The notes under the pieces were generated by a model. The model searched no databases. It had not been told where the DNA came from and saw only the letters and a program-made list of their open reading frames with translations. A stretch of DNA of 64,000 bases from a virus (taxonomy: Duplodnaviria > Caudoviricetes): positions 1 to 64,000 of the IMG/VR virus record IMGVR_UViG_3300044262_000032; one strand, given 5' to 3'. The translations under genes were made by a program, and so were the position numbers. Positions within the stretch are counted from its first letter, which is position 1. Every line of letters starts with the position of its first letter. Positions 3,719-18,225 of this stretch are shown here, piece after piece.

Positions 3719-3934
3719 ATGGGACTGAGAGGGATGTGGAAGTCCGCTGACAAGCCCCGGATCGTGCAGGTCGAGGTCATTCACGAGCGCAAGTCCGTGA
3801 CCAGGACCACGATCAGCCCCGCCTCCTGCGAGGAGTGCGACGGCAAGCCCAGCGACGAGTGCTGGGAGCAGTACAACTGCCTCGTGGCCTTCGAGCGGAA
3901 GTTCGACAAGCCGTTCTCGGGGTCGGGGAAGTAG
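3719..3934 (+). CDS. hypothetical protein
   Basis: AAAGGAG SD; CxxC motif. Confidence 0.6.
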   Translation: MGLRGMWKSADKPRIVQVEVIHERKSVTRTTISPASCEECDGKPSDECWEQYNCLVAFERKFDKPFSGSGK

Positions 3935-3936
3935 CC

Positions 3937-4224: not shown

Positions 4225-4450
4225 GGTTTCGATGACTGCGGATGTCCTCCTCCGTCGTCGGAAGTTCAGCCTCACCTTCACCAGCGAGACCACAGCCCAC
4301 GAACTCTGGTCGTACCTGTCCATGGTTCCACAGTCGGCCACGATCGAGGAGGTCTGGCAGCAGGACGAGTGGAAGGACGAATACCAGATCAAGGGCGTTC
4401 CCATGCGTCTGGACTTCCATCACGAGGAAGTCGTGAGGAGGGACAAGTAG
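4211..4450 (+). CDS. hypothetical protein
   Basis: GGAGG SD before ATG 4211. Confidence 0.55.
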   Translation: MGKPEVSMTADVLLRRRKFSLTFTSETTAHELWSYLSMVPQSATIEEVWQQDEWKDEYQIKGVPMRLDFHHEEVVRRDK

Positions 4451-4872
4451 TGGCTGGGATTGTCATGCTGGACCAGACCAATTTCGAGACCTACAAGTTG
4501 GTCAAGCAGGAACACATCAGGGAGTATCTGGATCTGAGTCGGGCGCACTGGCAGTTCCCGGTGCCCACGGAGTTCGTGGTGTCCAAGGAGTCGGAAGTCT
4601 GCGTCCCGATTCAAGGTCGAGTTTACCGCTGCGACTTGGCGGTGGCGAAGACCGAGCCGGATGGGCACGACAAGCCGTTGGTCATCGTCGAGGTCTTCGA
4701 GGATCACGGTGACGACGGTCACACGAACAATGTCCTAGTCGGATTCATGCTCATGCCGTGGGACGAGATGGGAGATTGGATCGAGAAGGTTAGGAAGGGC
4801 GAGAAGGGCAAGTACGGACATCCGTCCAACATCTACGATCTTACCCATCAGGCGATCAAGCCTTGGTGGTAA
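4450..4872 (+). CDS. possible PD-(D/E)xK nuclease-fold protein
   Basis: SEV...YRCDLAV...LVIVEVFEDH spacing resembles restriction-endonuclease-like cores. Confidence 0.4.
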   Translation: MAGIVMLDQTNFETYKLVKQEHIREYLDLSRAHWQFPVPTEFVVSKESEVCVPIQGRVYRCDLAVAKTEPDGHDKPLVIVEVFEDHGDDGHTNNVLVGFMLMPWDEMGDWIEKVRKGEKGKYGHPSNIYDLTHQAIKPWW

Positions 4873-4878
4873 AAGGGG

Positions 4879-5109
4879 GTGAGCGAAGGAATGGGTGACC
4901 TGCAGGTGAAGCCGAACGGGTTACACACAGGGCAGATGCGGATCTCCATTGACGACGGGTACTGCGAGTGGCAGTTCGATGTCCAGCTGCCAACGACCAT
5001 GTCCATCGATCAGGTCATGGAGAAGGTCGTCAACTCCACCGGCGCGAAGCGTCTGGTCGGCACCATGAGGTTGCGAACAACCCACGAGGCTTTCGGGAGG
5101 TTCAGATGA
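4879..5109 (+). CDS. hypothetical protein
   Basis: 76-aa ORF, tight packing. Confidence 0.5.
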   Translation: MSEGMGDLQVKPNGLHTGQMRISIDDGYCEWQFDVQLPTTMSIDQVMEKVVNSTGAKRLVGTMRLRTTHEAFGRFR

Positions 5110-5324
5110 ACGCAGCGGAACTGAGGCTCGGAATGGACCAGATGGGGCTCCTGCACATGGCGGTCGCGCCCTACCTCTGCGAGGGCGAGGTCTTCGTCAT
5201 CGAGGAGCATCCGGTGCAGGAGCCCGAAGTGGAAAAGCTCCTGATCTTCGGGTCGCGCGGCGCTACCCTGATTGCGCGGTTCGACGACCAGGGCTGGACC
5301 ATCAAGGAGGTGAACGTCCCGTGA
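5106..5324 (+). CDS. hypothetical protein
   Basis: ATGA overlap with the upstream ORF; GGGAGG SD. Confidence 0.55.
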   Translation: MNAAELRLGMDQMGLLHMAVAPYLCEGEVFVIEEHPVQEPEVEKLLIFGSRGATLIARFDDQGWTIKEVNVP

Positions 5325-5514
5325 AGAACGCGGAGAAGTTGTACCTGCTCCTTACCGAGAGCGGGCAACCGGCGGTGCAGTCCGACGACAAGGAGTGCAT
5401 CCTGGAACTCAAGCGGATGTTCAGCAAGGGAGCCCATATCCTCAAGCGCGGGGATGACGGGCAGTACCACAACATGCCTCTCCTGGAACAGGAAGGCTAA
5501 AGGAGGAGACAGAG

Positions 5515-5829
5515 ATGGCGAAGTCCCTGAAGGGTGTGAAGAAGGCTCTGAAGCACCTGCTCGGCTCCAAGCCCATGTCCTCGAAGAATCACGTCCCGGC
5601 GGAGTACAAGATCACGGACCGCGAAGGTTCGGTGGACGAGGCGCTCTCGGCGCGTCGGTTCAAGGACTCCTGCGAGCGGAACGAGAAGAACCGCAAGGTC
5701 GAGGAGGAGCGGCTCCTCAACAAGATCAAGAACCCGAAGGTGCGGATCAAGAAGGAGAAGGTGAAGAAGTCGGCGCCGGCTCCCAAGAAGTCCAAGAAGC
5801 GCAAGGGCGGAGGTGACGAGGAGGAGTAG
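5515..5829 (+). CDS. Lys-rich basic hypothetical protein
   Basis: AAAGGAGG SD; very high K content. Confidence 0.65.
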   Translation: MAKSLKGVKKALKHLLGSKPMSSKNHVPAEYKITDREGSVDEALSARRFKDSCERNEKNRKVEEERLLNKIKNPKVRIKKEKVKKSAPAPKKSKKRKGGGDEEE

Positions 5830-5830
5830 G

Positions 5831-6073
5831 ATGGGCGCAAAGTACGATGTCATGTTGGTGTCCATGGGGAATAACCTGGTGAGAGCGATTCTCGCCACGG
5901 ATCTCGATCGGGACACCGCGTGGGCAGCGGTCGAGCAGTACGGGAAGGAGTACGACACAGCCCAAGCCTTTGTGATTGACGACATCACCGGCAAGAACAA
6001 GGTTGGGCAGCAATATCGAGGCTTCCTCGTGGAAGGCTTCGATAATAGGAAAGGAGGTGAATTGAATGCCTAA
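5831..6073 (+). CDS. hypothetical protein, paralog of 6066-6422
   Basis: YDVMLVS..VRAILA..GKNKVG matches YDVLLIS..VRAILA..GKHKIG. Confidence 0.7.
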   Translation: MGAKYDVMLVSMGNNLVRAILATDLDRDTAWAAVEQYGKEYDTAQAFVIDDITGKNKVGQQYRGFLVEGFDNRKGGELNA

Positions 6074-6422
6074 TCCGCCTCAGATTACGGCCGGGAAGTC
6101 AACCACTCAGTACAAGGGAGTGACCTACGATGTCCTTCTCATCTCCCGTTCGACAGGGTGTGTCCGTGCGATTCTGGCTGAAGGGCTGGAGAGCATGGAG
6201 TCTCTTGACACCGTCAAGGTGTGGGGGAACGCCCTGAACACCAAGTTTGCCCTCGTCAAGGATCACACTTCGGGCAAGCACAAGATCGGGGACATCTTCA
6301 AGGGCTACGATGCCTCCCAGACTTCAACGGGGGGCTACTTCCCTGGTGCGAAGAAGGAGTTCGGTGCTCCAGCCGTGACGACCGTGAAGAACGGGGTCGA
6401 GAAGACCTACGACGGGATCTAG
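6066..6422 (+). CDS. hypothetical protein, paralog of 5831-6073
   Basis: AAAGGAGGTG SD; shared motif with the upstream ORF. Confidence 0.7.
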   Translation: MPNPPQITAGKSTTQYKGVTYDVLLISRSTGCVRAILAEGLESMESLDTVKVWGNALNTKFALVKDHTSGKHKIGDIFKGYDASQTSTGGYFPGAKKEFGAPAVTTVKNGVEKTYDGI

Positions 6423-6433
6423 ATCCTTTATCG

Positions 6434-6462
6434 AGGGGGTGACTTCGGTCACCCCTTCCATT
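6434..6462 (+). terminator. hairpin with C(UUCG)G loop, terminator-like
   Basis: AGGGGGTGAC-TTCG-GTCACCCCTT after the stop at 6422. Confidence 0.6.
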
Positions 6463-6500
6463 AAGGGATTTGGCTATCACTAGAGAAAGGAGGAATAGAG

Positions 6501-6797
6501 TTGGAATTTAACACTGGAGATCGTGTGGTAAACAAGAACAAACCGAGTTATGGACAGGGTACCGTGATTCACATACTGAATCCACGGTATCACAACCTCA
6601 CCACCCGCGTCGGTGTTCAGTTCGACAAGCCAATTCCGAGCGGGCACGACTGCTCTGGTGCTGAGCCAAACCACGGTTATTGGAGACTCGGGCACTGCTT
6701 CTGGTACACGCCACAGGAACTAGAGGTTGTGGGGCACGGTGAAGAAATTCCTCCTCTCAAGTGGCTGGGTGGAGGAAAACTGAAGGAGGTGACCTGA
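6501..6797 (+). CDS. CAP-Gly/SH3-like domain protein, paralog 1 of 3
   Basis: GDRV...GTV...VGVQFDKPIPSGHDCSG...ELEVVGHGEEIP. Confidence 0.65.
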   Translation: MEFNTGDRVVNKNKPSYGQGTVIHILNPRYHNLTTRVGVQFDKPIPSGHDCSGAEPNHGYWRLGHCFWYTPQELEVVGHGEEIPPLKWLGGGKLKEVT

Positions 6798-7117
6798 TGC
6801 GATTGGTACCAGGTGATCGTGTTCGGGTCAAGGACGAATTCGATGGAGAAAGTCTACCGGGCTGGGAAGGAACTGTAGTCCTTAATCATGAGCATAACGA
6901 TTCCTTGGTAGGAGTACAGTTCGATGAACCTATCTCCTGTGGACATGACTGCTGTGGCAATGCCCCGAACTACCCGATTTATCGGGATGGTTACTGTTGG
7001 TGGGGCGAGATGTCGGAATTGGAGTTCATCTGTCATGGCGAAGAAATACCTCCGGTGGCATATAGAGAGGTGAAAGGCTACACGCATACGCCGACCCTTT
7101 CAAAGGAGGTGAAATGA
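6797..7117 (+). CDS. CAP-Gly/SH3-like domain protein, paralog 2 of 3
   Basis: GDRVRV...GTVV...VGVQFDEPISCGHDCCG...ELEFICHGEEIP. Confidence 0.65.
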   Translation: MRLVPGDRVRVKDEFDGESLPGWEGTVVLNHEHNDSLVGVQFDEPISCGHDCCGNAPNYPIYRDGYCWWGEMSELEFICHGEEIPPVAYREVKGYTHTPTLSKEVK

Positions 7118-7491
7118 AGAAGATAGTCCATACGCACAAGTTCCGAGTCGGTGACCGTGTTCGAACCATCAACAAGCACTTTGCCGGAATTGTCATTGCC
7201 AAAGGCGAGGTTGGCATACTGGGAACCATAGTTGCAAGATGGGATCATAAGAAAGATTCCGATTGTAAGTACGGTGTCCAGTTCGACCAGAAGATCAACG
7301 GCGGCCACGATTGTAGCGGGAAAGAACCAAACTATCCTGTCTTCAAGAATGGATACTGTCGCTGGGGCTGCGGAACTGAGTTGGAGTTCATCGAACATGG
7401 AAAGGAGGTTCTTCCTCAGAAGTATGAGGCAAAGAACAAAGATGGCTCTCCGATTCCACTGAAACTTGTAAAAGGAAAGGGGGTGAGTTGA
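7114..7491 (+). CDS. CAP-Gly/SH3-like domain protein, paralog 3 of 3
   Basis: GDRVRT...GTIV...YGVQFDQKINGGHDCSG...ELEFIEHGKEV. Confidence 0.65.
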   Translation: MKKIVHTHKFRVGDRVRTINKHFAGIVIAKGEVGILGTIVARWDHKKDSDCKYGVQFDQKINGGHDCSGKEPNYPVFKNGYCRWGCGTELEFIEHGKEVLPQKYEAKNKDGSPIPLKLVKGKGVS

Positions 7492-7685
7492 TGGCAATGA
7501 GGAATGCTCCTGTCACGAAGGTTCTTCTGGCTCAAGGCGAGAAGAAAGTATGGTTCATCCGTCATGGCAATGGGCCAGTTCTTGTGAACTGGGTGTTCAC
7601 TGGACTGAAACAGAAACTGCCCCGCAATCTGGCGTTGGCCATCTACTACGGACTGAGAGCATTCGGATTCCAACGAGTGGTGTGA
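7488..7685 (+). CDS. hypothetical protein
   Basis: overlaps the upstream stop; 65 aa. Confidence 0.45.
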   Translation: MMAMRNAPVTKVLLAQGEKKVWFIRHGNGPVLVNWVFTGLKQKLPRNLALAIYYGLRAFGFQRVV

Positions 7686-7799
7686 AGGAGACGAAGATGT
7701 CCAACCCAAACCAGATGTTCCATGAGTGGCTGAAAGAGACCGCATTCAGCCTTACGAGGCTAGCAGCGGCGCAATATCAAGCCACGCCGAAGGAGCAAC

Positions 7800-8018
7800 A
7801 TGCCAACCTACACCATGAAAGTGATCAGGATGAAGTTGGGGGCAAGCCAAGTGAGACTTGCCCTCTTCAAGATCCTGACGCAGGAGGATGATACACCCTT
7901 TCTGCGTACTGTCGCCTTCTTCCACGACCACGAGATGATTGCCGAGGCAGCCAAACTCGTGGAGTGGAGGATACAACACGAACTCGGAGCATTGACCTTC
8001 GCACAGGTCGCGCTCTAA
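7800..8018 (+). CDS. hypothetical protein
   Basis: GGAG upstream; 72 aa. Confidence 0.5.
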   Translation: MPTYTMKVIRMKLGASQVRLALFKILTQEDDTPFLRTVAFFHDHEMIAEAAKLVEWRIQHELGALTFAQVAL

Positions 8019-8027
8019 GGAGGGATC

Positions 8028-8213
8028 ATGTCCGAAACCAAGATGGGTCTGCGTCAGAGGATTCTTCAGGCGACCACGGTCGGTGCGATCGAGACGCTCC
8101 TGAAGGAAGGTCTGACCTTCACCTTCGCGTCGGAGAAGACTCGGCGCTCGTGGAAGAACGCTGCCAAGCGCCGGACTGCTGAACTGGAGAAGGGCGTTCC
8201 GACGAACGCCTAG
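8028..8213 (+). CDS. hypothetical protein
   Basis: AAGGAGG SD. Confidence 0.65.
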   Translation: MSETKMGLRQRILQATTVGAIETLLKEGLTFTFASEKTRRSWKNAAKRRTAELEKGVPTNA

Positions 8214-8225
8214 AGAGGAGATGAA

Positions 8226-8642
8226 GTGAACATCCCGACCTGGAAGCAGATCAGCAAGGCCCTCCTCAAGGTGGGGGCTGCGGAGAACATTTGGGATCTT
8301 CAGCGGAAGATCGGTGTTTCTCCGATGACCATCGCCGCAGGGCTGAAGTGCAACTCGGTGCCGACTCACCTGTCTCTGGCGAAGGTGAAGGCATTCATCA
8401 ACCGACTCTCGGTGGTGCAGCGAGCGGAACTCCCTGCTCGTATCCGTGACATCGGGAACCTCACCACGAAGGTCTCCATGCCTGTCGTTCGCAAGCCGAA
8501 GGTGGTGGAGGCTGCCGCGATCAAGACGACGGTGAAGGAGAAGACGCCGCTCAAGGTAACGGTGAAGCAGACCATGACGACTGGGCAGCTTCTCCACACC
8601 CTCGGCGCTGCCTTCATCGAACTGGCAAAGGACTTCTCGTAG
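8226..8642 (+). CDS. putative HTH (Cro/C1-like) DNA-binding protein
   Basis: IWDLQRKIGVSPMTIAAGLK resembles an HTH; AGGAG SD. Confidence 0.45.
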   Translation: MNIPTWKQISKALLKVGAAENIWDLQRKIGVSPMTIAAGLKCNSVPTHLSLAKVKAFINRLSVVQRAELPARIRDIGNLTTKVSMPVVRKPKVVEAAAIKTTVKEKTPLKVTVKQTMTTGQLLHTLGAAFIELAKDFS

Positions 8643-8859
8643 AAGTCCGGCCATAACCAAGAAAGGAGCAGGAAATGACCGAGAAGGATGTTCTGGAGCA
8701 GTTGGAAGCGAAGCAGAAGGTCATCACGGGCGAGATCCTGGAGCACCAGGACGAGATCGCCAAGGCGCGGAAGCGTCTCAAGGAGATCGGGAAGCTGAGG
8801 AAGGTGCTCATCAAGGCCTTCCCGCAGGCCACGATGACCGAGGCGGTGTAGTACAACCA

Positions 8860-8883
8860 GAAGGGGGACTTCGGTCCCCCTTC
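8860..8883 (+). terminator. hairpin with C(UUCG)G loop
   Basis: GAAGGGGGAC-TTCG-GTCCCCCTTC; near-copy of the hairpin at 6434. Confidence 0.55.
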
Positions 8884-8913
8884 GCATTCCGATGATCCCA
8901 GGGGAGGAGGAGA

Positions 8914-9519
8914 ATGGACGAAGAGATGGCACTGAAGAAGGGGTTCGCGGTGCCGGATGAACCGGCATCCGACGATCCTGTGGATCGCATGGTCTATGCT
9001 CTCATGGTACAGACCAGGGCGTTCGCACAGGTGAACAAGTATTGGGCTGCGCCCAAGGAGAAAGAGGAGGAACCGAAGGACGCTGCTGAGGTCAAGCGGC
9101 TCCAGGAGATTTCCGACCTCGTCAAGAAACTCGGGGGCTGCAACGAGAGTGACTTCAGGAAGCTGATCACCCTTGTTGTTGGCAAGTCGCTGCCGTCGCC
9201 GAAGGTTCAGGCAACTGACATCCTCGGCGTGCAGTTCGTGCCCTTCGCTCTCGCCAAGGTGAAGGACAACCCGAACTCGCACAACTACCCGAAACACACT
9301 CCGATTCTCATTCATCGAGTGGAGTCGGAGAAGAAGCGGGCTCACGGCATGATCGACCAGGGCCTCGAAGGCAACTGGCTGCCCGAGTACCCGAAGTCCT
9401 ACGAGCCTTGCACGAAGGAAGAAATCGAAACCTTCGTCAAGAACCTCAAGAAGAACAAGACTGGGTCTGGGGTGTTCGCCAAGTACGCATCCCAGGCCTT
9501 CGACGCCATTTCGGCGTAG
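8914..9519 (+). CDS. hypothetical protein
   Basis: GGAGGAGG SD; 201 aa; GC3-rich. Confidence 0.75.
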   Translation: MDEEMALKKGFAVPDEPASDDPVDRMVYALMVQTRAFAQVNKYWAAPKEKEEEPKDAAEVKRLQEISDLVKKLGGCNESDFRKLITLVVGKSLPSPKVQATDILGVQFVPFALAKVKDNPNSHNYPKHTPILIHRVESEKKRAHGMIDQGLEGNWLPEYPKSYEPCTKEEIETFVKNLKKNKTGSGVFAKYASQAFDAISA

Positions 9520-9531
9520 ACCATTCAAACC

Positions 9532-9559
9532 GAGGGGACTGGGAACAGTCCCTTCTCTT
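9532..9559 (+). terminator. terminator-like hairpin ending the early block
   Basis: AGGGGACTG-GGAA-CAGTCCCTT then CTCTT. Confidence 0.55.
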
Positions 9560-10022
9560 GAGTGGTTTGTGCCACTCTTAACCACCGCGTAGTCCAACGA
9601 ATCTCCACTAATAGGAGGGACGGACGATGCTGAACAGTAGTTAAGTAGTTGCGGATGTACCTACACCGAAGGGAAAAGCTGGGCTATCACTCCTTCGGTG
9701 CCCTCTCTGGGGAGGGCGGGCAAAAGGCAGAGATGACCGTCTGCCTCACCTGGATAGCACAGGTTAAGGTAAGTATCGGAATCGCCGTAACCAGTATCGA
9801 GCACTCAGTACGCCCTATGGTTTGTCAAGCCCTAATAACCCAAATTATATGGTTTGAAAATTGTGTGGGGTTATTGGGGTGGTAATCATAGTGCCAAAAG
9901 TCACCGATGAGGTTCAGTCGAGGAAGAGAACGCCAACGGTTCGGGCAGCCATCGGGAGATGGCTTGGGGGGAGGCATGTCCTCCCCCGACAAATGCCCGC
10001 TTTCTGAAAGGAGGAGACTGGT

Positions 10023-12365
10023 TTGGCTGGACAAAAAGTAGTGTTCACCCTCGCGGAGGCTGCCTCGCAGACTCCCGAGGTGCTTGGGGGAAAGGGACAC
10101 GGGCTGGCAGTCATGGCCAGTCTTGGTGTGCCTGTGCCCCCGGCACTTGTGGTGAGTACCAAGGTTGCAAGGTCGTACCGACAGTATGGGAAGATACCTT
10201 CTCGACTGCCGGGTCAGTTGAAACTGGGCATCACACGCCTAGAGAAACTGACGGGGAAGAAGTTCGGTGATCCGAAGAATCCCCTGCTCGTGTCGGTTCG
10301 TTCTGGGGCGGTTGTTTCAATGCCCGGAATGATGGACACAATTCTGAACCTCGGATTGACGGAGACGATTACCAAGTCTCTCGCCGTGAAGTATGGGGCA
10401 GAGTTTGCGTGGGATTCCTACCGGCGCTTCCTGTTCATGTTCGGGAATGTCGTGTTCAATATCCCGGACGAAGTTCTGAAGTTCGAGGAGGAGGATGCCC
10501 AGGCCCATTGTGCGGCTCTCCGGGCGAAGGTCGAAGAATGGACTGGGCATCCTTTCCCCGATTCGCCAGCGATGCAGATGGCACTCGCGGTTGTTGCGGT
10601 TATCCGATCGTGGAACAGCGAGAGAGCCATTCTGTACCGTAAGACGAACGGGATCCCGGATTGGTGGGGAACTGCTGTCAACATCCAGAGCATGGCGTTT
10701 GGCAACCTAAATGACGCCTCTGCAACGGGTGTTGTGTTCAGCCGTGATGTCGCAACCGGCGCAAAGGGTATCTACGGTGAGTTTCTGCCCCGAGCGCAGG
10801 GTGAAGACATTGTTGCTGGCATTCGCACTCCCATGCCGGTCGCAGAGATGGAGAAGTGGAACAAATCTCTGTACCTGCAACTCGACAAGACCGTGCAGAC
10901 CCTTGAAGAGTATTACAAGGATGTGGTCGATGTCGAGTTCACCGTCGAGAACGGGAAGTTGTACATCCTTCAGGTTCGCAAAGCCAAGCGTACTCCTGAA
11001 GCGGGGTTGACAATCGCCACTAACTTCGTCTGGGAAGACAAGTGGACGAAGGAAGAGGCGGTCAAGAATGCTCGGTACATGGCTCGCCAGGTCGTAAAGC
11101 AATCTTTCGATCCGGTGAAGATGGAGAAGGCCAAGCAGTTGGGTATCGGTCTTCCTGCGTCTCCTGGCTGTGTCACGGGTCAGATCGTGTTTACCTCAAA
11201 GGATGCCGCTCGTTGGCTGAAGAACTCGGACAACGATACGAATGTCATCCTGATTCGCCCTGACACAAGTCCTGATGATCTTGAGGGTATGCTCGCTTCC
11301 AAAGCGATCGTTACCGGCACAGGTGGTCTCACGTCCCATGCTGCGGTTGTTGCTCGTGGCATAGGCAAGCCCTGTATTGTTGGGGTTGATGCCATCAAGT
11401 TCGTGGACGAGGATACCATCAAGATCGGTGGTACGACCCTGACGAAGGGGGAAATCATCTCTGTCGATGGCGCTACGGGCAAGATCTTCCGTGGTGAAAT
11501 TGCCCTCGACAAGCAGTTGGATTTCAAGAAGGAGATCAGCATCTTCATGAAGTGGATGAAGGAGCTGGAACCTCCTCCCCCTACGCCGAGAGTCGGATTC
11601 GAGTACATGGGGCAGACAATGCCCGAGAATACCCTGCTCAACGACTTCTATATCTCCGATGCCATGCTGTTGGCAGTCGGGGGGCATCCTGCTGAGCAGG
11701 AGTATCAGGAGTATAGGGATTCGGTGCACTTTATGGGTGCTGAGCGTCTGGCTTGCTACCTGGCTATCGCCTGTGCTGGCGAGTTGAGGCATTCATTCTC
11801 CCATTGCAAGGAGTACAGTTCCTTGCCGTGCAACTGCATAGCCTGTACTCTCAAGCACGGCCAGTCAAAGATTGGCTATCCTGGGTATGCTGAAGCCAAG
11901 TATGCTCGGGAGGTGCTGGTCTCAAAGTATGGTCTGAAGCAGGGTGGTTCTGGACGTGAGAGCCAGCAGATCGCCACGGTTGACAAGTTGAAGAAGATGG
12001 ATGAGCAGGATGTAACCACCTTCTTCTTCCTCGCGGAACTCGTCTTTAGGAAGTACAAATGGAGCAGTGGGTATGGTGGTGAGAATTGGGCCAACATCGC
12101 CGCTGCGCCTGTGAAGTTCTTGACGGGTGAAGTCAGCCACAGCGTGTTCTGCGACCATGTCTTTGACCTTCAGCACAACAATGGTTCGGTGTTCGGTAAG
12201 CACAAGATGTTCAAGGGGCACCGTGACCATGTGAAGCGACAGTTGGATCAGAAGAAACGGGCTACGAATGTCGCGGATCTGGTTCAGCGACTCAAGCCTT
12301 GGGGCGTTATCTCACCACAGACGATGACGCTGTTTACCAAGGGTAACAAGTTGGGGCTTTGGTAA
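10023..12365 (+). CDS. PPDK-family dikinase-like protein (ATP-grasp + phospho-His swivel domain) with non-PPDK C-terminal domain
   Basis: LGGKG, LLVSVRSGA..SMPGMMDTILNLG, GEDIVAG, DVEFTVENGKLYILQVR, GGLTSHAAVVARG; the last ~260 aa show no PEP-binding barrel motifs. Confidence 0.9.
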   Translation: MAGQKVVFTLAEAASQTPEVLGGKGHGLAVMASLGVPVPPALVVSTKVARSYRQYGKIPSRLPGQLKLGITRLEKLTGKKFGDPKNPLLVSVRSGAVVSMPGMMDTILNLGLTETITKSLAVKYGAEFAWDSYRRFLFMFGNVVFNIPDEVLKFEEEDAQAHCAALRAKVEEWTGHPFPDSPAMQMALAVVAVIRSWNSERAILYRKTNGIPDWWGTAVNIQSMAFGNLNDASATGVVFSRDVATGAKGIYGEFLPRAQGEDIVAGIRTPMPVAEMEKWNKSLYLQLDKTVQTLEEYYKDVVDVEFTVENGKLYILQVRKAKRTPEAGLTIATNFVWEDKWTKEEAVKNARYMARQVVKQSFDPVKMEKAKQLGIGLPASPGCVTGQIVFTSKDAARWLKNSDNDTNVILIRPDTSPDDLEGMLASKAIVTGTGGLTSHAAVVARGIGKPCIVGVDAIKFVDEDTIKIGGTTLTKGEIISVDGATGKIFRGEIALDKQLDFKKEISIFMKWMKELEPPPPTPRVGFEYMGQTMPENTLLNDFYISDAMLLAVGGHPAEQEYQEYRDSVHFMGAERLACYLAIACAGELRHSFSHCKEYSSLPCNCIACTLKHGQSKIGYPGYAEAKYAREVLVSKYGLKQGGSGRESQQIATVDKLKKMDEQDVTTFFFLAELVFRKYKWSSGYGGENWANIAAAPVKFLTGEVSHSVFCDHVFDLQHNNGSVFGKHKMFKGHRDHVKRQLDQKKRATNVADLVQRLKPWGVISPQTMTLFTKGNKLGLW
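12333..12347. promoter_or_regulatory. GTTACC-N3-GGTAAC site, copy 4 (1 mismatch)
   Basis: TTTACC-AAG-GGTAAC at the 3' end of the dikinase gene. Confidence 0.3.
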
Positions 12366-12384
12366 GCCGCAGAAAGGAGAAGGG

Positions 12385-13290
12385 ATGTCTCTGAAAAAGA
12401 ACAAAAGGAGGAAGTTGGTTCGAAGCACCGACTATATGGCGATGGGAGGCGCTGACAAGATCCCGGTTAACTCGGGAAAAGGAACTAGCCGTACTGATCT
12501 GATGGCCGGAGACTACGACATCGACGGCTATTCGCTGGACGGCTATGGGGGTAGCTGGCGAGGTGCCGGAACCACCTACAACGCTGCTGGCTACAACTAC
12601 AAACCGCATCCCAAGCATATCGGCGACAAACCGATCAAGGTCGGGAAGTTCGAAATCTTCGCTGGTGGGATGCGGGATCTGACTCCCGATGACATCGACA
12701 AGTTCGATGTCCTGATCCCGCTGACGCAAGACATTCCTAACATGACCTTCGGCCATCCGTACCGCATTCTCGCAGCGCCGCTGGTCGATTACGGTGGCGT
12801 GCCCGACACCTGGGAAGTGTTCCTCAAGGAACTCGTGATTCCGCTGCTGGAAGGCGGTCACAAGATCCTGGCCTACTGCTACGGCAGTCACGGTCGAACG
12901 GGGTGCTTCCTCGCTTCTCTGATTTCGATTCTTGAGCCGGAGACGGCGGATCCGATCGAAGCAGCACGGAAGCGGCATTGCAAGAAGGCGGTCGAGTCGC
13001 TGGCGCAGGCGAAAGCGGTCTATGCGCTGAGAGGGGAGGAGCTGCCCGAGAAGTGGGCGAAGGACTTTTCCAACGTCACCCGTGGATACTCTTACACGGC
13101 TGGCTACGGCGGCAATACGAACTGGGGCTCGTATGGTGGCGGGTCTTATGAGCGTAAGCCTGCTGAGGTCAAGCCGGTCCCGGAAACCGCGAGCGGTATC
13201 GCCGGCAAGACGGTGAAGGAAGTTGCCGCGATGAATGATGCTGACTGGGCGGCCTACGCCAAGGAAAGCAACATTCCAATCTTCGACTAA
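12385..13290 (+). CDS. CX5R cysteine phosphatase (PTP/dual-specificity family)
   Basis: ILAYCYGSHGRTGCFLASL P-loop; VESLAQ Q-loop-like; Gly/Tyr-rich flanks. Confidence 0.85.
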   Translation: MSLKKNKRRKLVRSTDYMAMGGADKIPVNSGKGTSRTDLMAGDYDIDGYSLDGYGGSWRGAGTTYNAAGYNYKPHPKHIGDKPIKVGKFEIFAGGMRDLTPDDIDKFDVLIPLTQDIPNMTFGHPYRILAAPLVDYGGVPDTWEVFLKELVIPLLEGGHKILAYCYGSHGRTGCFLASLISILEPETADPIEAARKRHCKKAVESLAQAKAVYALRGEELPEKWAKDFSNVTRGYSYTAGYGGNTNWGSYGGGSYERKPAEVKPVPETASGIAGKTVKEVAAMNDADWAAYAKESNIPIFD

Positions 13291-13299
13291 GGAGGAACG

Positions 13300-14289
13300 A
13301 TGGGATACGGATTCCCGGAGCCTGGCAGTAAGTGGTACATGGGTGGCACCGATGGCAGCGGCGAGTATATGGTCGTTGCCGAAGGTGAGTTCGGTCGAGT
13401 CGGTTACCGTGAGGTGAAGCCGAAGATCTACCGTGTTCGGTTTGAGCCCAACACCGACGAGACCTCCACGATGGAGCAGATTCAGAAGGTGCTCCACAAC
13501 TGGTGCCCGCCCCAATCGAGCATCGGTGGTGACACCTTCCGCTTCTCCGTTCTGGCCAATGGCATCGACTCGCTCCGCATGGGTCTGGATCAGGCGATCA
13601 AGGCGATGGGATCGTTTGGGAGTTTCAACCCTGCGGCCCCGGAGTTCGCTCGAAAACTCATCGACGAGCCCTTCGATGCCAGCGCCACACCGCCGCTGCC
13701 CCCACCCCCTGGCGGGGGTTCTGGGTGGTGGATCGGTAAGGGATTCGCTCCGATGGAGACCAAGGGGATCTTCGCGGAGTGGATGAGCAAGAAGATGAGC
13801 CCTGGCACCGATCTTCATGACAACGGGTATCACAGCGAGGACGAGCACGAGGACGAAGACGAGGAGGAGAACGAGGAGAGCGATGATGAGAGCGAGGAAA
13901 TCTCGCCGACTCCTCCTTCGGAGGTGGATCCAATCTCCGAGCATTTCGACATCACCCTTCTTCTTGACGGAGACAAGTTCCTCGACGGGCACATGCCTAT
14001 CGCTGCTGGCGTCAAGGACGCGCGTCTCACGGCAAAGTTGAAGGAGATCTGCAGGGAAATCTCTGCGGAGATGGGCAAGAGCTGGATGGGTGGGTGTGGT
14101 TGTGGTGCGTGCGTCAAGATCAACAACCAGGCTCTGGAGAAATACAAGGAACTCCTCGAAGCGGAGATCATCGCCAAGACGCCGCCGCTCACCGAGGAAC
14201 AGAAGAAGGCCAAGACCGTTGAGCACACCGTCGAAGTGATGAAGGCGGCTGGTGATCTCGCGGCTTGCCTCAAGGCTTTCGGTTTCTAA
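13300..14289 (+). CDS. hypothetical protein; N-terminal domain paralogous to 14415-14882, acidic linker, Cys-containing C-terminus
   Basis: AAGGAGG SD; shared blocks with the next ORF. Confidence 0.8.
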   Translation: MGYGFPEPGSKWYMGGTDGSGEYMVVAEGEFGRVGYREVKPKIYRVRFEPNTDETSTMEQIQKVLHNWCPPQSSIGGDTFRFSVLANGIDSLRMGLDQAIKAMGSFGSFNPAAPEFARKLIDEPFDASATPPLPPPPGGGSGWWIGKGFAPMETKGIFAEWMSKKMSPGTDLHDNGYHSEDEHEDEDEEENEESDDESEEISPTPPSEVDPISEHFDITLLLDGDKFLDGHMPIAAGVKDARLTAKLKEICREISAEMGKSWMGGCGCGACVKINNQALEKYKELLEAEIIAKTPPLTEEQKKAKTVEHTVEVMKAAGDLAACLKAFGF

Positions 14290-14414
14290 CAAAGGAGGTG
14301 AGTAAGAAAGTACAAGGAGAAAGCCATTCGCCCGTGAAGAGTAGAAGGTGCAGTACAGGCGCAGTATCTCCGCAAACAGGGCATAACGCCCAACTACGAA
14401 AGGAGCAGTACACC

Positions 14415-14882
14415 ATGTCGAATCCCGCTTTCCAGATGGCCGGCACCGAGGGTTCCTTCCAGTATGTCGTCGTCGCTCTGGGCACCGAGGGCCGCATCGG
14501 CTTCCGCCCGCTCGGTGACATGGCTCGCGTCCGCATCGAGCCCAAGGACGGCGCTTCCTACGGCGTCGTGCGCCGGATGGACGAGGAGCTGCAGGGCTCC
14601 GACTTCGAGTGGAAGACCCCGAACGGTCAGTTCCGCTTCTCGACCGTGATCGACGGCAACGAGGGCCTGCGCGAGGCTCTCGAAGTCGGCATCGGCGTCA
14701 TCGGGGAGATCGAGCAGGTCAACCCGGCCGCGCCGGCGTGGGCTCGTCGCCTCGCTGGTGAGTACGTGCCGGAGCCGGCTCCGGTCGCCGCGAAGGCCGA
14801 GTCGTGCGGTCTCAACGAGGACCTCGTGAAGGCGCTGCTCGCCTCCATGCAGGCTCTCGCCGCGGCGCTCGTCAAGAAGTAA
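14415..14882 (+). CDS. hypothetical protein, paralog of the 13300-14289 N-terminal domain
   Basis: AAAGGAG SD before ATG 14415; MAGTEGS..YVVVA.G..GRIGFR..RVRIEP..FRFS..NPAAP. Confidence 0.8.
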   Translation: MSNPAFQMAGTEGSFQYVVVALGTEGRIGFRPLGDMARVRIEPKDGASYGVVRRMDEELQGSDFEWKTPNGQFRFSTVIDGNEGLREALEVGIGVIGEIEQVNPAAPAWARRLAGEYVPEPAPVAAKAESCGLNEDLVKALLASMQALAAALVKK

Positions 14883-14933
14883 TCAACGGTAGTCCGTTGA
14901 TCGAACAGAGGGCCTTCTGCCCTCTGTTCCCTT
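14882..14933 (+). terminator. tandem hairpins ending the dikinase operon
   Basis: ATCAACGG-TAGT-CCGTTGAT and GAACAGAGGGC-CTTCT-GCCCTCTGTTC. Confidence 0.6.
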
Positions 14934-14973
14934 GAACGGATTGCTAACGGGCACACGCCCAGAAAGGAGAAGT

Positions 14974-15318
14974 ATGAAGAAACTGTTTGTAGGAGGACTG
15001 GTGGCTCTGGCGTTAACAGGGTGCGGGTATGTGTCAACGGACAATGAACTGATGGGTCAGGTCAAGAAGGTCAAGCACAACACCCCGCTGATCTGCCCCA
15101 ACTACTACTCCGTCGATGTGAGCCTCGGCGTCATGCGAAATGGCGTTGGCTCGATGTCCACTCAGGATGTTTGGCTGCGCGTGGAAGATCACTCCATGCT
15201 CAAGACCCTTCGGGAAGCGACAGAGAGCGGCGCGCTGGTCAAGATCAAGTGTGACCAGTATCGTTTTGCACCCTGCGCCCCCGACTACACCCTGACTGGC
15301 GTCGAAATCATCCCGTAA
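14974..15318 (+). CDS. lipoprotein
   Basis: signal peptide with lipobox MKKLFVGGLVALALTG-C. Confidence 0.7.
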   Translation: MKKLFVGGLVALALTGCGYVSTDNELMGQVKKVKHNTPLICPNYYSVDVSLGVMRNGVGSMSTQDVWLRVEDHSMLKTLREATESGALVKIKCDQYRFAPCAPDYTLTGVEIIP

Positions 15319-15373
15319 TCCTCTGATCGGATAGAGGGCGAAAGCCCTCTATCTCATTGAGCGGATTGCACAT

Positions 15374-15447
15374 CTGCCTCGTGGTCTGAACGCAAGACGC
15401 TCCCCGAAGGGGGGAAATACGGGCTCGATGCCCGTCGAGGCAGGCCA
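15374..15447 (+). ncRNA. isolated tRNA-like RNA (non-canonical cloverleaf with CCA end)
   Basis: CTGCCTCG/CGAGGCAG acceptor, GTCT/AGAC D-arm, TCCC/GGGA middle arm, ACGGG-CTCGATG-CCCGT T-arm, G-CCA. Confidence 0.65.
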
Positions 15448-15448
15448 A

Positions 15449-15467
15449 TTTACAAGCACTTGAAAAG
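15449..15467. repeat. dispersed palindrome, copy 2
   Basis: TTTACAAG-CA-CTTGAAAAG right after the CCA of the tRNA-like RNA. Confidence 0.8.
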
Positions 15468-15633
15468 CGAAAGGAGGTAGAATGCGTAGACCAATAAGTA
15501 AATTGAAACGCAGGCGGTACCTCAAGTTGGTCAAACAATTCTGTACCGAAGACCTCTCAAAGGCAGCTGGTAAGGAGTTTTGGGCATTGGTTCGTCCAAA
15601 AGGAAGAGTAAAGATATAGAGAAGGAGGTGGGT

Positions 15634-15819
15634 ATGGCAGATTCCTCTACCGTGATGTGTTGTGCCAACTGTGGTTTCTTTCAGCATCGGTACAAAACTC
15701 CGCAGATGGGTGACTGTGGTCATCACAAGAGGGCAACGATGGCCATGTCCTACTGCGGAAAGTTCGCATGGGCGAATGGTGTTCGCTGGATAGTAGGGAA
15801 GGGAGGGAAGAAGAAGTGA
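15634..15819 (+). CDS. Cys-rich hypothetical protein
   Basis: AAGGAGGTG SD; CCANC...C...C. Confidence 0.55.
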   Translation: MADSSTVMCCANCGFFQHRYKTPQMGDCGHHKRATMAMSYCGKFAWANGVRWIVGKGGKKK

Positions 15820-16061
15820 TCTCCCGATGGGACTACTACGAACATCATGAGAGCAAGGAGGCGCTGGCAGAGGGACAGATGCCAGTCGAGCAGGAAGTGG
15901 ATTTTACCTGTCCTATCAGCGGTGCAGTTTTGTCAAAGGTATGCAAGTTCTACCATGAAGTTTCCACAAAATCCCTGGAGTATCACGGATATATTGTGGA
16001 CATGGAGTGTCGCAAGGGCTGTTTCAATGAGAAAGGGTGCCCCTATGCAAAAAAGGGCTAG
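15816..16061 (+). CDS. hypothetical protein
   Basis: GTGA overlap with upstream ORF; Cys motifs. Confidence 0.5.
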   Translation: MISRWDYYEHHESKEALAEGQMPVEQEVDFTCPISGAVLSKVCKFYHEVSTKSLEYHGYIVDMECRKGCFNEKGCPYAKKG

Positions 16062-17040: not shown

Positions 17041-18225
17041 GTGGATATTCTAATGGATCCGCAGACGCGCCTTCCAATCAAATCTTGGGCGCCATTGGAA
17101 AGTATTGAACCAGAAGCAATCGAACAGGCGAAGAACTTGGCCTCTCTTCCGTTTGCCCATCATCATATTGCTCTCATGCCAGACTGTCATTCCGGATATG
17201 GGATGCCGATCGGGGGTGTTCTTGCCACCAAGAATGTTGTAATTCCCAATGCTGTGGGAGTTGATATTGGGTGCGGAATGCTTTCGGTCAAAACGGGGCT
17301 CGGTACTCATGTTATCAACCCCGAAAGGCTTCGACTGATCTTTGGACGACTTCGGGAGTCTATCCCAGTTGGATTTGAGCACCACAAAGAGGCTCAGGAT
17401 GAGAAGTTCATGCCCGAGGATCGATCCGTACTGGAGACCGATTCGGTTGTTCGTCCTCAGTACATGGCTGCGCTAAAGCAGGTAGGAACTCTCGGTGGTG
17501 GCAATCACTTCATCGAGTTCCAAGAAGACGAGGACGGCGCTCTCTGGTTTACGGTACATTCCGGCAGTCGGAATCTGGGTCATCGAGTTGCATCGTGGTA
17601 TAACGACCGAGCGAAGGCACTCTGTGACCGATGGTTTACCTCTGTTCCGGCGAAGTGGGATCTGGCGTTTCTCCCGATTGGCGAGGATCTTACAACCAAC
17701 TACATCACGGATATGAAATACTGTGTGGAGTTCGCCAAGAAGAATCGGGAGCTGATGGCTCGTAGGATCTCCGCGGCCCTCTATGGGTTTGTACCGTTCA
17801 CAGAGGAGTGGCGCCTGGATATTGCTCACAACTATGTCCGAGCCGAGTTCCACGGTGGACAGAATCTCTGGGTTCATCGTAAGGGTGCTACATCCGCGAA
17901 GAACGGGGAGTTCGGCATCATCCCCGGCTCCCAGGGGACTCACACCTTCATTGTCAGAGGTCTGGGCAATCCTGAAAGTTTCTCCTCATGTAGTCATGGC
18001 GCAGGCAGAGTTATGGGGAGAAAGCAGGCGCAGCGTTCCCTGAATCTGAAGGAAGAACAGAAGAAGATGGAAGCTGCGGGCGTTATGGTCCATGGTCTTC
18101 GTTCTTCAAAGGATCTGGATGAAGCGCCTGGAAGCTACAAATCCATTGACTGGGTAATGTCACATCAGACCGACCTGGTTGAAGTGGTCCACACGCTACG
18201 GCCTCTTGCCGTGATGAAAGGATAG
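17041..18225 (+). CDS. rtcB: RtcB RNA ligase
   Basis: PDCHSGYGMPIG, VGVDIGCG, GTLGGGNHFIE, HSGSR, HRKGA, PGSQG, HGAGR, DEAPGSYK. Confidence 0.97.
   Translation: MDILMDPQTRLPIKSWAPLESIEPEAIEQAKNLASLPFAHHHIALMPDCHSGYGMPIGGVLATKNVVIPNAVGVDIGCGMLSVKTGLGTHVINPERLRLIFGRLRESIPVGFEHHKEAQDEKFMPEDRSVLETDSVVRPQYMAALKQVGTLGGGNHFIEFQEDEDGALWFTVHSGSRNLGHRVASWYNDRAKALCDRWFTSVPAKWDLAFLPIGEDLTTNYITDMKYCVEFAKKNRELMARRISAALYGFVPFTEEWRLDIAHNYVRAEFHGGQNLWVHRKGATSAKNGEFGIIPGSQGTHTFIVRGLGNPESFSSCSHGAGRVMGRKQAQRSLNLKEEQKKMEAAGVMVHGLRSSKDLDEAPGSYKSIDWVMSHQTDLVEVVHTLRPLAVMKG

What the first reader, a model, noticed from the sequence alone, without database searches (positions are those of the whole stretch)
10023..12365. 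Dikinase with a swapped acceptor domain: probable new phosphotransferase
Seen: residues ~1-510 keep the PPDK ATP-grasp catalytic set (GGKG Lys, VSVRSG Arg, D-x-E, Q-x-R) and the swivel phospho-His motif GGLTSHAAVVARG. After the end-of-swivel helix and a PPPPTP linker, ~260 aa carry no PEP/pyruvate barrel. They show a different conserved-looking segment (ACAGELRH...SGYGGENWANIA...FCDHVFDLQHNNGSVFGK). Established: rifampin phosphotransferase and glucan water dikinase reuse these two modules with a different substrate-binding domain. Inference: this enzyme phosphorylates a non-pyruvate acceptor, such as a defence nucleotide signal, RNA/DNA end, glycan, host protein or antibiotic. It is not a central-metabolism auxiliary gene.
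Basis: partly seen in the sequence, partly recalled or inferred. Interest (0 to 1): 0.85.

Follow-up and report, generated by a model that had tools for sequence, protein, structure and literature searches.

The report
Phage dikinase with new acceptor domain
This phage enzyme keeps the ATP-using and phosphate-carrying parts of pyruvate phosphate dikinase but has an undescribed helical domain in place of the pyruvate-binding part; it travels with a phosphatase and a small unknown protein, forming a widespread phosphate-transfer system whose target is unknown.

Summary
ORF 10023-12365 (780 aa) has a PPDK-type ATP-grasp and a phospho-His swivel (H439). It then carries a 265-aa all-helical domain (AF2 pLDDT 90.7) that is not a PEP/pyruvate barrel and matches no Pfam family or solved fold.

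This domain is conserved in more than 110 protein clusters. It occurs C-terminal to the dikinase, N-terminal to it, or as a separate gene in cultured Vibrio, Stenotrophomonas, Rhizobium and Rhodobacter phages. Those phage genes are labelled "PPDK", and one published phage study reads the gene as metabolic.

The gene belongs to a module. Next to it lie an intact CX5R dual-specificity-type phosphatase (12385-13290) and two copies of a small Arg-rich "D" protein (13300-14289, 14415-14882). D is the most faithful partner (20 of 24 metagenomic loci; the phosphatase is in 15 of 24). A conserved ~420-nt leader precedes the gene in its three closest relatives.

The acceptor remains unknown, and nothing here tests chemistry.

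This scan has met the same module repeatedly on other DNA (39 earlier notes). No experimental work was found in the literature.

The parts
9603..10022 (+). Gene-free leader upstream of the dikinase gene, conserved in the phage-type subfamily. It ends in a three-way-junction element at 9942-9999 (CGGGC...GACAAAUGCCCG), just before the Shine-Dalgarno site.
   Evidence: All four closest relatives have a 390-500 nt gap here. In the alignment of window, L005 and L012, 31 of 72 predicted pairs show compensatory double changes. The strict motif occurs only at these three sites in 792 kb of held DNA. Rfam has no match. The fold z-score of -5.05 is not specific.
10023..12365 (+). Dikinase gene, 780 aa (P0001)
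10023..11042 (+). PPDK-type ATP-grasp nucleotide-binding domain (about residues 1-340) with K24, R93, D303, E305, Q317 and R319
   Evidence: Pfam PPDK_N E 2e-42; alignment to 1KBL/9PZL; most of these residues are invariant in 18 homologs
11148..11513 (+). Phospho-histidine swivel domain (about residues 376-497); T437-S-H439 is at 11331-11339
   Evidence: Pfam PEP-utilizers E 1e-22; H439 motif aligned with the GGMTSHAAVVARG motif of C. symbiosum PPDK
11568..12362 (+). New all-alpha domain (residues 516-780; phrog_20946-like). Core motifs are GELRH 586-590, YGGxxW 684-689 and DHxFDLxHNNGxxFxK 711-726. A subfamily-specific Cys-rich insert (CNCIAC) is at 603-608.
   Evidence: AF2 pLDDT 90.7, pTM 0.88, 11 helices; no PDB fold match; no Pfam match; phrog_20946 E 8e-17; conservation
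12385..13290 (+). CX5R dual-specificity-type cysteine phosphatase, 301 aa. General-acid D135 (DYGGVP) is at 12787-12804 and C165-YGSHGR-T-G at 12877-12903.
   Evidence: 55-64% identical to the gene after the dikinase in 5 other loci; invariant D135, C165 and R171; profile matches SsoPTP (E 7e-6) and DUSP23 (E 7e-3)
13300..14289 (+). D1: the small Arg-rich 'D' module (residues 1-130), then an acidic low-complexity tract and a C-terminal tail containing CGCGAC
   Evidence: Homologous to the small gene next to the dikinase in L004, L005 and L008-L011; family of at least 247 clusters; AF2 pLDDT 82; strong SD site before 13300
14415..14882 (+). D2: second copy of the D module, 155 aa. The start is most likely the ATG at 14415 after AAAGGAG, not the TTG at 14265.
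   Evidence: 36% identical to D1 over 117 aa; SD site

Best explanation
The gene encodes an ATP-dependent dikinase of the PEP-utilising (ATP-grasp plus phospho-histidine swivel) superfamily. Its PEP/pyruvate barrel has been replaced by a previously undescribed, conserved all-helical domain that serves as the second, acceptor-side active site.

Expected cycle, inferred from the family's known mechanism:
1. The ATP-grasp domain loads H439.
2. The swivel domain carries the phosphoryl group to the helical domain.
3. Invariant polar residues there (E587, R589, H590, D711, H718, N719, K726) position the acceptor and catalyse transfer.
4. AMP is released, together with Pi or PPi.

The enzyme does not interconvert pyruvate and PEP. 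It works as part of a module with a hydrolytically competent DSP-type cysteine phosphatase, which removes the phosphate either as a reversal or as a later pathway step. The module also includes a small Arg-rich protein, D.

D is the most constant partner. It is the leading candidate, at about one chance in three, for the phospho-acceptor itself or for the adaptor that presents the acceptor.

Shown: the domain anatomy, the conservation and the gene linkage. Inferred: all of the chemistry.
For: - Intact catalytic sets in both N-terminal modules.
- The C-terminal domain is confidently all-alpha and carries a dense set of invariant His, Asp, Glu, Arg and Lys residues, as an active site would.
- Three independent architectures link this domain to dikinase modules. 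It is C-terminally fused in more than 110 clusters at 50% identity. It is N-terminal to a PEPS/Rph-type ATP-grasp and swivel in P0155. It is a separate gene in the split phage cassettes.
- Among 80 IMG/VR loci, all 38 with an alpha-protein also have the phosphatase, and the 25 of them whose ORFs I measured are short (573-870 codons, only L053 above 770). The 42 loci without partners are mostly PPDK-sized: 13 of the 14 measured have 877-968 codons; the exception is 757.
- P0116 fuses dikinase, alpha-domain and phosphatase in one chain.
- The phosphatase keeps the general-acid Asp and CX5R(T) and is 55-64% identical between phage and cellular loci.
- D follows the fused dikinase in 20 of 24 metagenomic loci that have enough downstream DNA, and in all 6 looked-up loci. 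A D-like segment is present in the split phages' 250-290-aa proteins.
- Acceptor-domain swapping is established in this superfamily (PMC4844700, PMC12167813).
Against: - No biochemical data exist for any member.
- The helical domain matches no solved fold, so nothing about its ligand can be read from structure.
- H712 and D715 are invariant only in the fused subfamily and are not kept in the standalone phage proteins. The universal catalytic set is therefore smaller than the fused alignment suggests.
- D also occurs without a visible dikinase, as D-TIR fusions on short contigs.
- Four fused loci show neither partner within about 2 kb or more downstream.
- A fused kinase-phosphatase (P0116) fits a two-step pathway as well as it fits a writer/eraser pair.
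Confidence: 0.7

Rival explanations
1. The acceptor is a nucleic acid or a nucleotide, such as an RNA or DNA end, a modified base or a nucleotide signal. The DSP-type phosphatase would act on the same polymer or nucleotide, and D would be a nucleic-acid-binding partner.
For: - In the split phages the cassette lies directly before DNA polymerase I.
- The DSP fold includes RNA 5'-phosphatases (general knowledge).
- D has four invariant Arg residues, and some D proteins end in a Rho_N/SAP-like domain.
- The window has RtcB and a metallophosphoesterase 2.7-5 kb downstream.
- A conserved structured leader precedes the gene.
- Earlier scan notes report a large RNA beside the cellular cassettes.
Against: - The phosphatase's nearest solved relatives are protein phosphatases, SsoPTP and DUSP23.
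- In the window and in the cellular loci the module is not next to a polymerase.
- No nucleic-acid-binding fold was recognised in either unknown protein.
- RtcB needs no end-healing kinase.
Confidence: 0.25
2. The acceptor is a small molecule, and the phosphate is a transient handle. The compound would be phosphorylated, transformed and later dephosphorylated by the phosphatase, as in the Hpe and Cre phenolic pathways. D would be a carrier or an accessory.
For: - Most characterised non-PPDK members of the superfamily act on small molecules (RPH, HpeHI, CreHI, PpsAB; PMC4844700, PMC12167813).
- In the Hpe pathway, phosphorylation is followed by carboxylation and then dephosphorylation.
- The dikinase-phosphatase fusion P0116 fits one pathway.
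Against: - No transforming enzyme (oxidase, carboxylase or transferase) is conserved in the module, which holds only the dikinase, the phosphatase and D.
- The phosphatase is of the protein-phosphatase type.
- The helical domain did not appear as similar to the RPH chains in either the PDB profile search or the fold searches.
Confidence: 0.15
3. The helical domain is not catalytic. It would be a docking, regulatory or oligomerisation domain. The swivel His~P would then be passed PTS-style to a partner protein, or the protein would act only as an ATP-consuming switch.
For: - In PTS Enzyme I a helical subdomain docks HPr next to the swivel His (general knowledge).
- The split-form dikinases have a different ~170-200-aa tail and still pair with a standalone helical protein.
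Against: - The invariant residues are polar and charged (E, R, H, D, H, N, K) rather than a hydrophobic interface.
- The same motifs persist across the fused, permuted and split forms.
Confidence: 0.1
4. It is a true PPDK or PEP synthase, an auxiliary metabolic gene that boosts host glycolysis or gluconeogenesis, as published for the Vibrio phage homolog.
For: - GenBank annotations call it PPDK, and PMC12038007 reads it as a metabolic gene.
- The N-terminal 500 residues are 35-46% identical to the other phage-record PPDK-like genes and align to solved bacterial PPDK at E 3e-127.
Against: - There is no PF02896 barrel in this protein or in the split phage homologs.
- TIGR01828 scores 566 bits against a cut-off of 843 and covers only residues 5-514.
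- The C-terminal domain is all-alpha.
- Most of the barrel-less ORFs are about 100-300 codons shorter than PPDK-sized ORFs and always come with the partner genes.
Confidence: 0.03

Closest known systems
Pyruvate, phosphate dikinase (EC 2.7.9.1; TIGR01828; C. symbiosum 1KBL/1DIK/9PZL)
   Same: The ATP-grasp nucleotide domain and the phospho-His swivel domain are the same, with the T-S-H motif and the same domain order. Residues 7-496 align at E 3e-127.
   Different: The C-terminal PEP/pyruvate TIM barrel (PF02896) is absent. It is replaced by a 265-aa all-helical domain of unknown fold. The whole-protein score is below the family cut-off.
Rifampin phosphotransferase (RPH-Lm, 5HV1/5FBS; PMC4844700)
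   Same: The principle is the same: an ATP-grasp and a His swivel combined with a non-pyruvate substrate-binding domain. The permuted relative P0155 has RPH/PEPS-type N-terminal modules.
   Different: The domain order differs, since RPH runs ATP-grasp, RIF-binding, swivel. NF041857 scores 37.5 bits against a cut-off of 999. No similarity of the helical domain to the RPH chains was detected.
Two-component phenolic dikinases HpeHI, CreHI and PpsAB (PMC12167813)
   Same: The dikinase is split into separate polypeptides, as in the split phage cassettes. Phosphorylation is followed later by dephosphorylation within one pathway.
   Different: Those enzymes split the ATP-grasp away from the swivel plus acceptor domain. 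Here the split form keeps ATP-grasp and swivel together and separates only the acceptor domain. The partners differ as well (a DSP phosphatase and protein D), and no catabolic enzymes are linked.
Glucan, water dikinase with the glucan phosphatases SEX4/LSF2/laforin (from general knowledge)
   Same: A His-swivel dikinase is paired functionally with a dual-specificity-fold phosphatase acting on the same substrate.
   Different: No carbohydrate-binding module was found in any component. GWD has the opposite domain order. The pairing in plants is not an operon.
PTS Enzyme I and HPr (from general knowledge; PDB hits)
   Same: A swivel phospho-His domain lies next to a helical subdomain and passes phosphate to a small partner protein. 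This is the model for 'D is the acceptor'.
   Different: Enzyme I is charged by PEP through a barrel, not by ATP through an ATP-grasp. D shows no similarity to HPr.
Short 'PPDK' of NCBIfam NF004531 (PRK05878, 534-position model)
   Same: This model covers the ATP-grasp and swivel only. The window protein scores 447 bits, just under the cut-off of 456, over residues 5-497.
   Different: The 534-position model leaves no room for the helical domain. I know of no tested function for its members (from memory).

Membership tests
Pyruvate, phosphate dikinase (TIGR01828 / EC 2.7.9.1) | ATP-grasp nucleotide-binding domain with its catalytic Lys, Arg, Asp/Glu and Gln/Arg set | tested here: met
   PPDK_N E 2e-42. 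K24, R93, D303, E305, Q317 and R319 are present and aligned to 1KBL/9PZL.
Pyruvate, phosphate dikinase (TIGR01828 / EC 2.7.9.1) | Phospho-histidine swivel domain with the catalytic His | tested here: met
   PF00391 E 1e-22. GGLTSHAAVVARG (H439) lies opposite the chain's GGMTSHAAVVARG.
Pyruvate, phosphate dikinase (TIGR01828 / EC 2.7.9.1) | C-terminal PEP/pyruvate-binding TIM barrel (PF02896) | tested here: not met
   No PF02896 hit at E<=1. The AF2 model of residues 516-780 has 11 helices and no strand of 3 or more residues. PDB homology ends at residue 496-515.
Pyruvate, phosphate dikinase (TIGR01828 / EC 2.7.9.1) | Whole-protein score at or above the curated cut-off | tested here: not met
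   566.1 bits against a cut-off of 843.45, covering profile positions 2-525 of 865.
PEP-utilising dikinase superfamily (ATP-grasp plus His swivel phosphotransferases) | Both modules are present with intact catalytic residues in one system | tested here: met
PEP-utilising dikinase superfamily (ATP-grasp plus His swivel phosphotransferases) | ATP-dependent autophosphorylation of the swivel His and transfer to a second substrate | not testable with these tools
   Needs biochemistry (labelled ATP, H439A).
Rifampin phosphotransferase (NF041857) | Family score and the ATP-grasp / RIF-binding / swivel domain order | tested here: not met
   37.5 bits against a cut-off of 999, with only the swivel aligned. 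The domain order differs.
phrog_20946 (phage protein family of unknown function) | Profile match of the helical domain | tested here: met
   E 7.8e-17 over residues 564-754. Standalone phage members share ExRH, YGGxxW and DxxxxLxHNNGxxFxK.
Cys-based PTP/DSP phosphatases (partner gene 12385-13290) | CX5R(S/T) P-loop with a general-acid Asp about 30 residues upstream | tested here: met
   D135 and C165-YGSHG-R171-T are invariant in 6 homologs. The profile matches SsoPTP at E 7e-6. Pfam hits are below the gathering score.
Known anti-phage defence or counter-defence systems (PADLOC-DB 2.0) | Any module protein matches a system model | tested here: not met
   No hit for the dikinase, the phosphatase, D1, D2 or P0116. 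Only the TIR half of a D-TIR fusion matches.
T3SS-chaperone/YbjN-like (TY-Chap) fold, considered for protein D | Sequence or fold match to SycE/SpcU/CesT-type chaperones | tested here: inconclusive
   3 of 66 D members hit PF22552, best E 0.0014. Foldseek's top rows include SpcU, SycE and STM2138 at E 0.06-0.2 and probability 0.6-0.85. VIA gives SpcS Z 4.2 and SpcU Z 3.5.

The most novel reading that the evidence does not exclude
The module is a self-contained macromolecule-phosphorylation system that uses dikinase chemistry instead of a protein-kinase or P-loop fold. ATP charges the swivel His. The new helical domain then transfers the phosphate onto the small protein D, or onto a protein or RNA that D presents. 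The DSP-type phosphatase resets it. Phages, and ultra-small bacteria, would use this as a switch on a host or viral process. It would be the first ATP-driven PPDK-type enzyme that acts on a protein or nucleic acid.
Probability: 0.3. Interest if true: 0.85.

Novelty: new variant of a known kind. Interest (0 to 1): 0.7.

Why it matters
**Annotation.** At least 38 viral contigs in IMG/VR, and a whole group of cultured Vibrio, Stenotrophomonas, Rhizobium and Rhodobacter phages, carry this system. Their dikinase genes are annotated 'PPDK', and a published analysis of the Vibrio phage J26 gene reads it as an auxiliary metabolic gene that boosts host energy metabolism (PMC12038007). The evidence here says that label is wrong for the barrel-less forms.

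**Enzymology.** The system adds a new acceptor domain, with no recognisable fold, to a superfamily known for swapping acceptor domains. It also comes with a fixed partner set: a phosphatase and a small protein of a large, undescribed family with at least 247 clusters.

**Biology.** The same module is found in phages, Patescibacteria and Obscuribacterales. That points to a general function that has been entirely missed. The function is directly testable with three or four recombinant proteins.

Tried and rejected
**Searches that found nothing useful**
- Megablast of the gene against phage records gave no match.
- A close-relative scan of viral contigs with the C-terminal domain found nothing.
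- Foldseek against the PDB gave E>=1 for the helical domain. VIA-align wide gave a best Z of 5.5, against 55-66-residue designed helical proteins, which is below the tool's stated helical background.
- A PDB sequence-profile search hit only the swivel part. That profile (A2) unintentionally kept the swivel columns, so the deep search had to be read by profile position.
- ESM Atlas gave no usable hit for the helical domain or for D.
- Pfam scans of every member of the alpha and D alignments gave no recurrent family, apart from the weak TY-Chap3 lead.
- PADLOC gave nothing.
- Rfam gave nothing in the window module or in 7 related loci apart from tRNAs.
- BLASTN among the intergenic regions of different loci showed no similarity.

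**Tests that failed or were uninformative**
- Fold-stability z-scores as evidence for a leader RNA are rejected. In a paired test on 28 loci, the 400 nt upstream (mean z -2.96) were no more structured than a coding control from the same gene (mean z -2.60; leader lower in 15 of 28). An earlier version of this script timed out.
- A covariance model of the 3' leader element was not built, because MAFFT offset one strand of the outer stem. A descriptor search was used instead.
- The split-form dikinase tails (about 170-200 aa after the swivel) do not match the helical-domain profile.
- The idea that D's invariant Met is merely the start codon is rejected, because D1 has a strong SD site 13 codons upstream.
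- The contexts of the D-TIR fusions showed no dikinase, but the contigs are too short to say more.
- The metagenome scan found no further close relatives (50% identity or more), so the leader RNA still rests on three sequences.
Full report
**The observation**

The window is part of a large phage genome:
- The protein's record gives a contig of 89,675 bp.
- The window holds 26 clustered tRNA genes.
- It holds a replication block with a DnaD-like loader, DnaB, primase, helicase, UvsX-like recombinase, exonuclease and DNA polymerase I.
- It also holds RtcB and a metallophosphoesterase.
- The polymerase is under 30% identical to that of any catalogued phage.

ORF 10023-12365 (+) encodes 780 aa, with a strong Shine-Dalgarno site before its TTG start.

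Pfam finds PPDK_N and the mobile PEP-utilizers domain but no C-terminal barrel. TIGR01828 aligns only to residues 5-514 and stays far below its cut-off. phmmer aligns residues 7-496 to C. symbiosum PPDK at E 3e-127, with the query's GGLTSHAAVVARG (H439) opposite the chain's GGMTSHAAVVARG.

**The C-terminal domain**

Residues 516-780 (P0002) match no Pfam family. This holds for the window's copy and for seven homologs scanned one by one. They do match phrog_20946, a phage family of unknown function (E 8e-17).

With a 23-sequence alignment, AlphaFold2 gives a confident model (pLDDT 90.7, pTM 0.88) of eleven helices with no strand of three or more residues. The domain is therefore not a TIM barrel.

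- Foldseek against the PDB finds nothing better than E = 1.
- An exhaustive VIA-align search peaks at Z 5.5 on 55-66-residue designed helical proteins, within the noise the tool states for helical models.
- In BFVD only four unnamed viral proteins match.

The domain carries a dense set of invariant polar residues across 18 fused homologs: H569, GELRH 586-590, R645, Q649, GG 685-686, W689, D711, H712, D715, H718, K726 and K744. The standalone phage versions keep ExRH, YGGxxW and DxxxxLxHNNGxxFxK, but not H712 or D715.

**Architectures**

The fused form is a family:
- About 20 clusters at 90% identity.
- More than 110 representatives at 50% identity in which the swivel and helical domain are matched as one stretch.

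The same domain is also found in five other arrangements:
- As a separate 340-357-aa gene 2-3 kb downstream of a barrel-less 'PPDK' gene in Vibrio, Stenotrophomonas, Rhizobium and Rhodobacter phages.
- At the N-terminus of P0155, ahead of a PEPS/Rph-type ATP-grasp and swivel.
- Fused together with the phosphatase in P0116.
- With an AAA ATPase in P0077.
- Three times in the 2263-aa P0133.

Two different fusion orders plus conserved neighbourhood form a strong Rosetta-stone argument that the helical domain works with the dikinase modules.

Among 80 IMG/VR loci, all 38 with a helical protein also had the phosphatase. The 25 of these whose ORFs I measured are short (573-870 codons stop-to-stop, only L053 above 770). 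The other 42 loci had neither partner, and 13 of the 14 I measured had PPDK-sized ORFs of 877-968 codons. The exception, L046, has 757 codons.

**Partners**

*The phosphatase.* Directly downstream lies a 301-aa protein with the dual-specificity-phosphatase hallmarks. These are a general-acid Asp (D135 in DYGGVP) about 30 residues before C165-YGSHG-R171-T-G. It is 55-64% identical to the gene that follows the fused dikinase in five other loci. Its profile matches SsoPTP and DUSP23.

*Protein D.* Next come two paralogous copies of a ~120-aa module that I call D: 13300-14289, and 14415-14882 with a revised start.

- D follows the fused dikinase in all six looked-up loci, which include cellular contigs from Obscuribacterales and a Moranbacteria MAG that carry housekeeping genes.
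- Among 24 metagenomic fused loci with enough downstream DNA, D is present in 20 and the phosphatase in 15. Three pairs of these loci are near-duplicates.
- A D profile also picks out the 250-290-aa proteins of the split phage cassettes as its top non-training hits, always through the same N-terminal motif region. The E-values are weak, 8e-5 to 0.014 in a tiny database.
- The D family has at least 247 clusters at 90% identity, mostly from Patescibacteria.
- Its invariant residues are M14, G16, T17, Y23, G35, R37, R45, R47, E49, P50, W68, R81 and S83.
- A few members end in a TIR or Rho_N domain.
- Its model (pLDDT 82; three strands, then helix, strand, helix, strand, helix) has no significant PDB match.
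- T3SS-chaperone-like proteins do recur as weak hits by both sequence and structure.

**Leader RNA**

The gene is preceded by a 503-nt gap. Its four closest relatives all have gaps of 390-500 nt.

- The three available sequences align over about 420 nt. RNAalifold predicts 72 pairs, of which 31 show compensatory double changes.
- The clearest element is a three-way junction at 9942-9999. Its outer stem is invariant, and the stem of its second hairpin changes GGGGG/CCCCC to GGTGG/CCGCC to ATAGG/CCTAT.
- A strict descriptor of this element occurs only at these three sites in 792 kb of held DNA.
- Rfam has no match.

The strongly negative folding z-scores are not specific evidence, because coding controls from the same genes score as low. 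I regard the leader as a probable cis-regulatory RNA of this subfamily. It rests on only three sequences.

Earlier notes of this scan report a larger RNA family beside the cellular cassettes. I could neither link nor unlink the two.

**Mechanism**

By analogy with PPDK, PEPS and RPH (PMC4844700, PMC5371819), the expected cycle runs as follows:
1. The ATP-grasp domain charges H439.
2. The swivel domain carries the phosphoryl group to the helical domain.
3. The invariant Glu, Arg, His, Asp, Asn and Lys set there binds the acceptor and catalyses transfer.
4. The phosphatase, which has everything needed for hydrolysis, removes the phosphate either as a reset or as a later step.

D is the most constant partner. 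It has an invariant Gly/Thr-rich loop and an Arg cluster. I therefore rank 'D is the acceptor or presents it' first among specific models, at about one in three. A nucleic-acid or nucleotide acceptor comes second, and a small molecule with a transient phosphate handle third. None of this chemistry was testable here.

**Comparison and novelty**

The protein is a member of the ATP-grasp plus His-swivel dikinase superfamily. It fails two defining tests for PPDK, the barrel and the family score, and it also fails the test for RPH (see the membership table).

The only published treatment I found of these phage genes reads the Vibrio phage J26 homolog as a PEP/pyruvate-converting metabolic gene. That paper states that no functional work exists on viral 'PPDK' (PMC12038007). 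None of the 95 DNA-hypermodification papers retrieved by the search and listed there mentions a dikinase, and PADLOC does not include the module.

This scan itself has met the module many times on other DNA, with 39 notes in at least 35 genomes. Those follow-up agents reached the same general conclusion.

My independent additions are:
- The quantified primacy of D over the phosphatase.
- The permuted and triple-fused architectures.
- The D-TIR and D-Rho_N fusions.
- The weak chaperone-fold lead for D.
- The subfamily-specific leader element.
- The negative control showing that fold z-scores do not single out leaders in these loci.

Noticed in passing
window 46521-53199: An array of 26 tRNA genes on the + strand. 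It is interrupted by a few small ORFs and lies just before DNA polymerase I (54007-56490).
   Followed up: no
window 17041-18225 and 19134-19724: An RtcB RNA ligase (Pfam E 6e-107) and a calcineurin-like metallophosphoesterase lie 2.7-5 kb downstream of the module. They may form an RNA-repair set. No link to the dikinase module was seen in other loci.
   Followed up: partly
window 11829-11846 (dikinase residues 603-608) and D1 residues 266-271 (about window 14095-14112): A Cys-rich insert, C-x-C-x-x-C followed by K-H, is found in the helical domain only in the four phage-type relatives P0001 and P0003-P0005. It lies in the low-confidence stretch of the model. A similar G-C-G-C-x-x-C-V-K string occurs in the C-terminal tail of D1. 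This may be a zinc knuckle, and the resemblance is unexplained.
   Followed up: no
L094, L005, L009, L118 and other loci (dikinase coding regions): Coding segments of several dikinase genes fold far better than dinucleotide shuffles (z -4 to -9 with 12 shuffles). These mRNAs may be unusually structured throughout, not only in their leaders.
   Followed up: partly
P0279 / L137:3399-4202 and P0227 / L138:330-971: The D module is fused to a TIR domain. L137 also carries a CAP12-PCTIR TIR protein and a cREC receiver-like gene, which looks like a defence-island setting, with no dikinase on the short contig.
   Followed up: partly
P0133 (2263 aa), P0116 (935 aa), P0077 (1030 aa): Unusual relatives: P0133 has three helical-domain repeats in one giant protein with no Pfam hit. 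P0116 fuses dikinase, helical domain and CX5R phosphatase. P0077 fuses the dikinase and helical domain to an AAA ATPase.
   Followed up: partly
window 1-16000 versus 16000-48000: There is a composition step. G+C is 0.59-0.62 in the first 6 kb and 0.55-0.57 across the module (8-16 kb). It then drops to 0.47-0.50. The first 10 kb hold only small ORFs with no family matches.
   Followed up: no
window 57999-61694 and 61694-63961 (- strand): Two very large ORFs (1231 and 755 aa) have no PHROG match at all.
   Followed up: no
L014-L050 (IMG/VR contigs): About 40 contigs catalogued as viral carry PPDK-sized ORFs (877-968 codons, with one 757-codon exception) without the module's partner genes. They may be true viral metabolic genes or bacterial DNA in the viral catalogue. 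This was not resolved.
   Followed up: partly
window 14290-14414: If D2 starts at 14415, as its ribosome-binding site suggests, a 125-nt non-coding spacer separates D1 from D2. The TTG ORF listed from 14265 would be an over-extension.
   Followed up: partly
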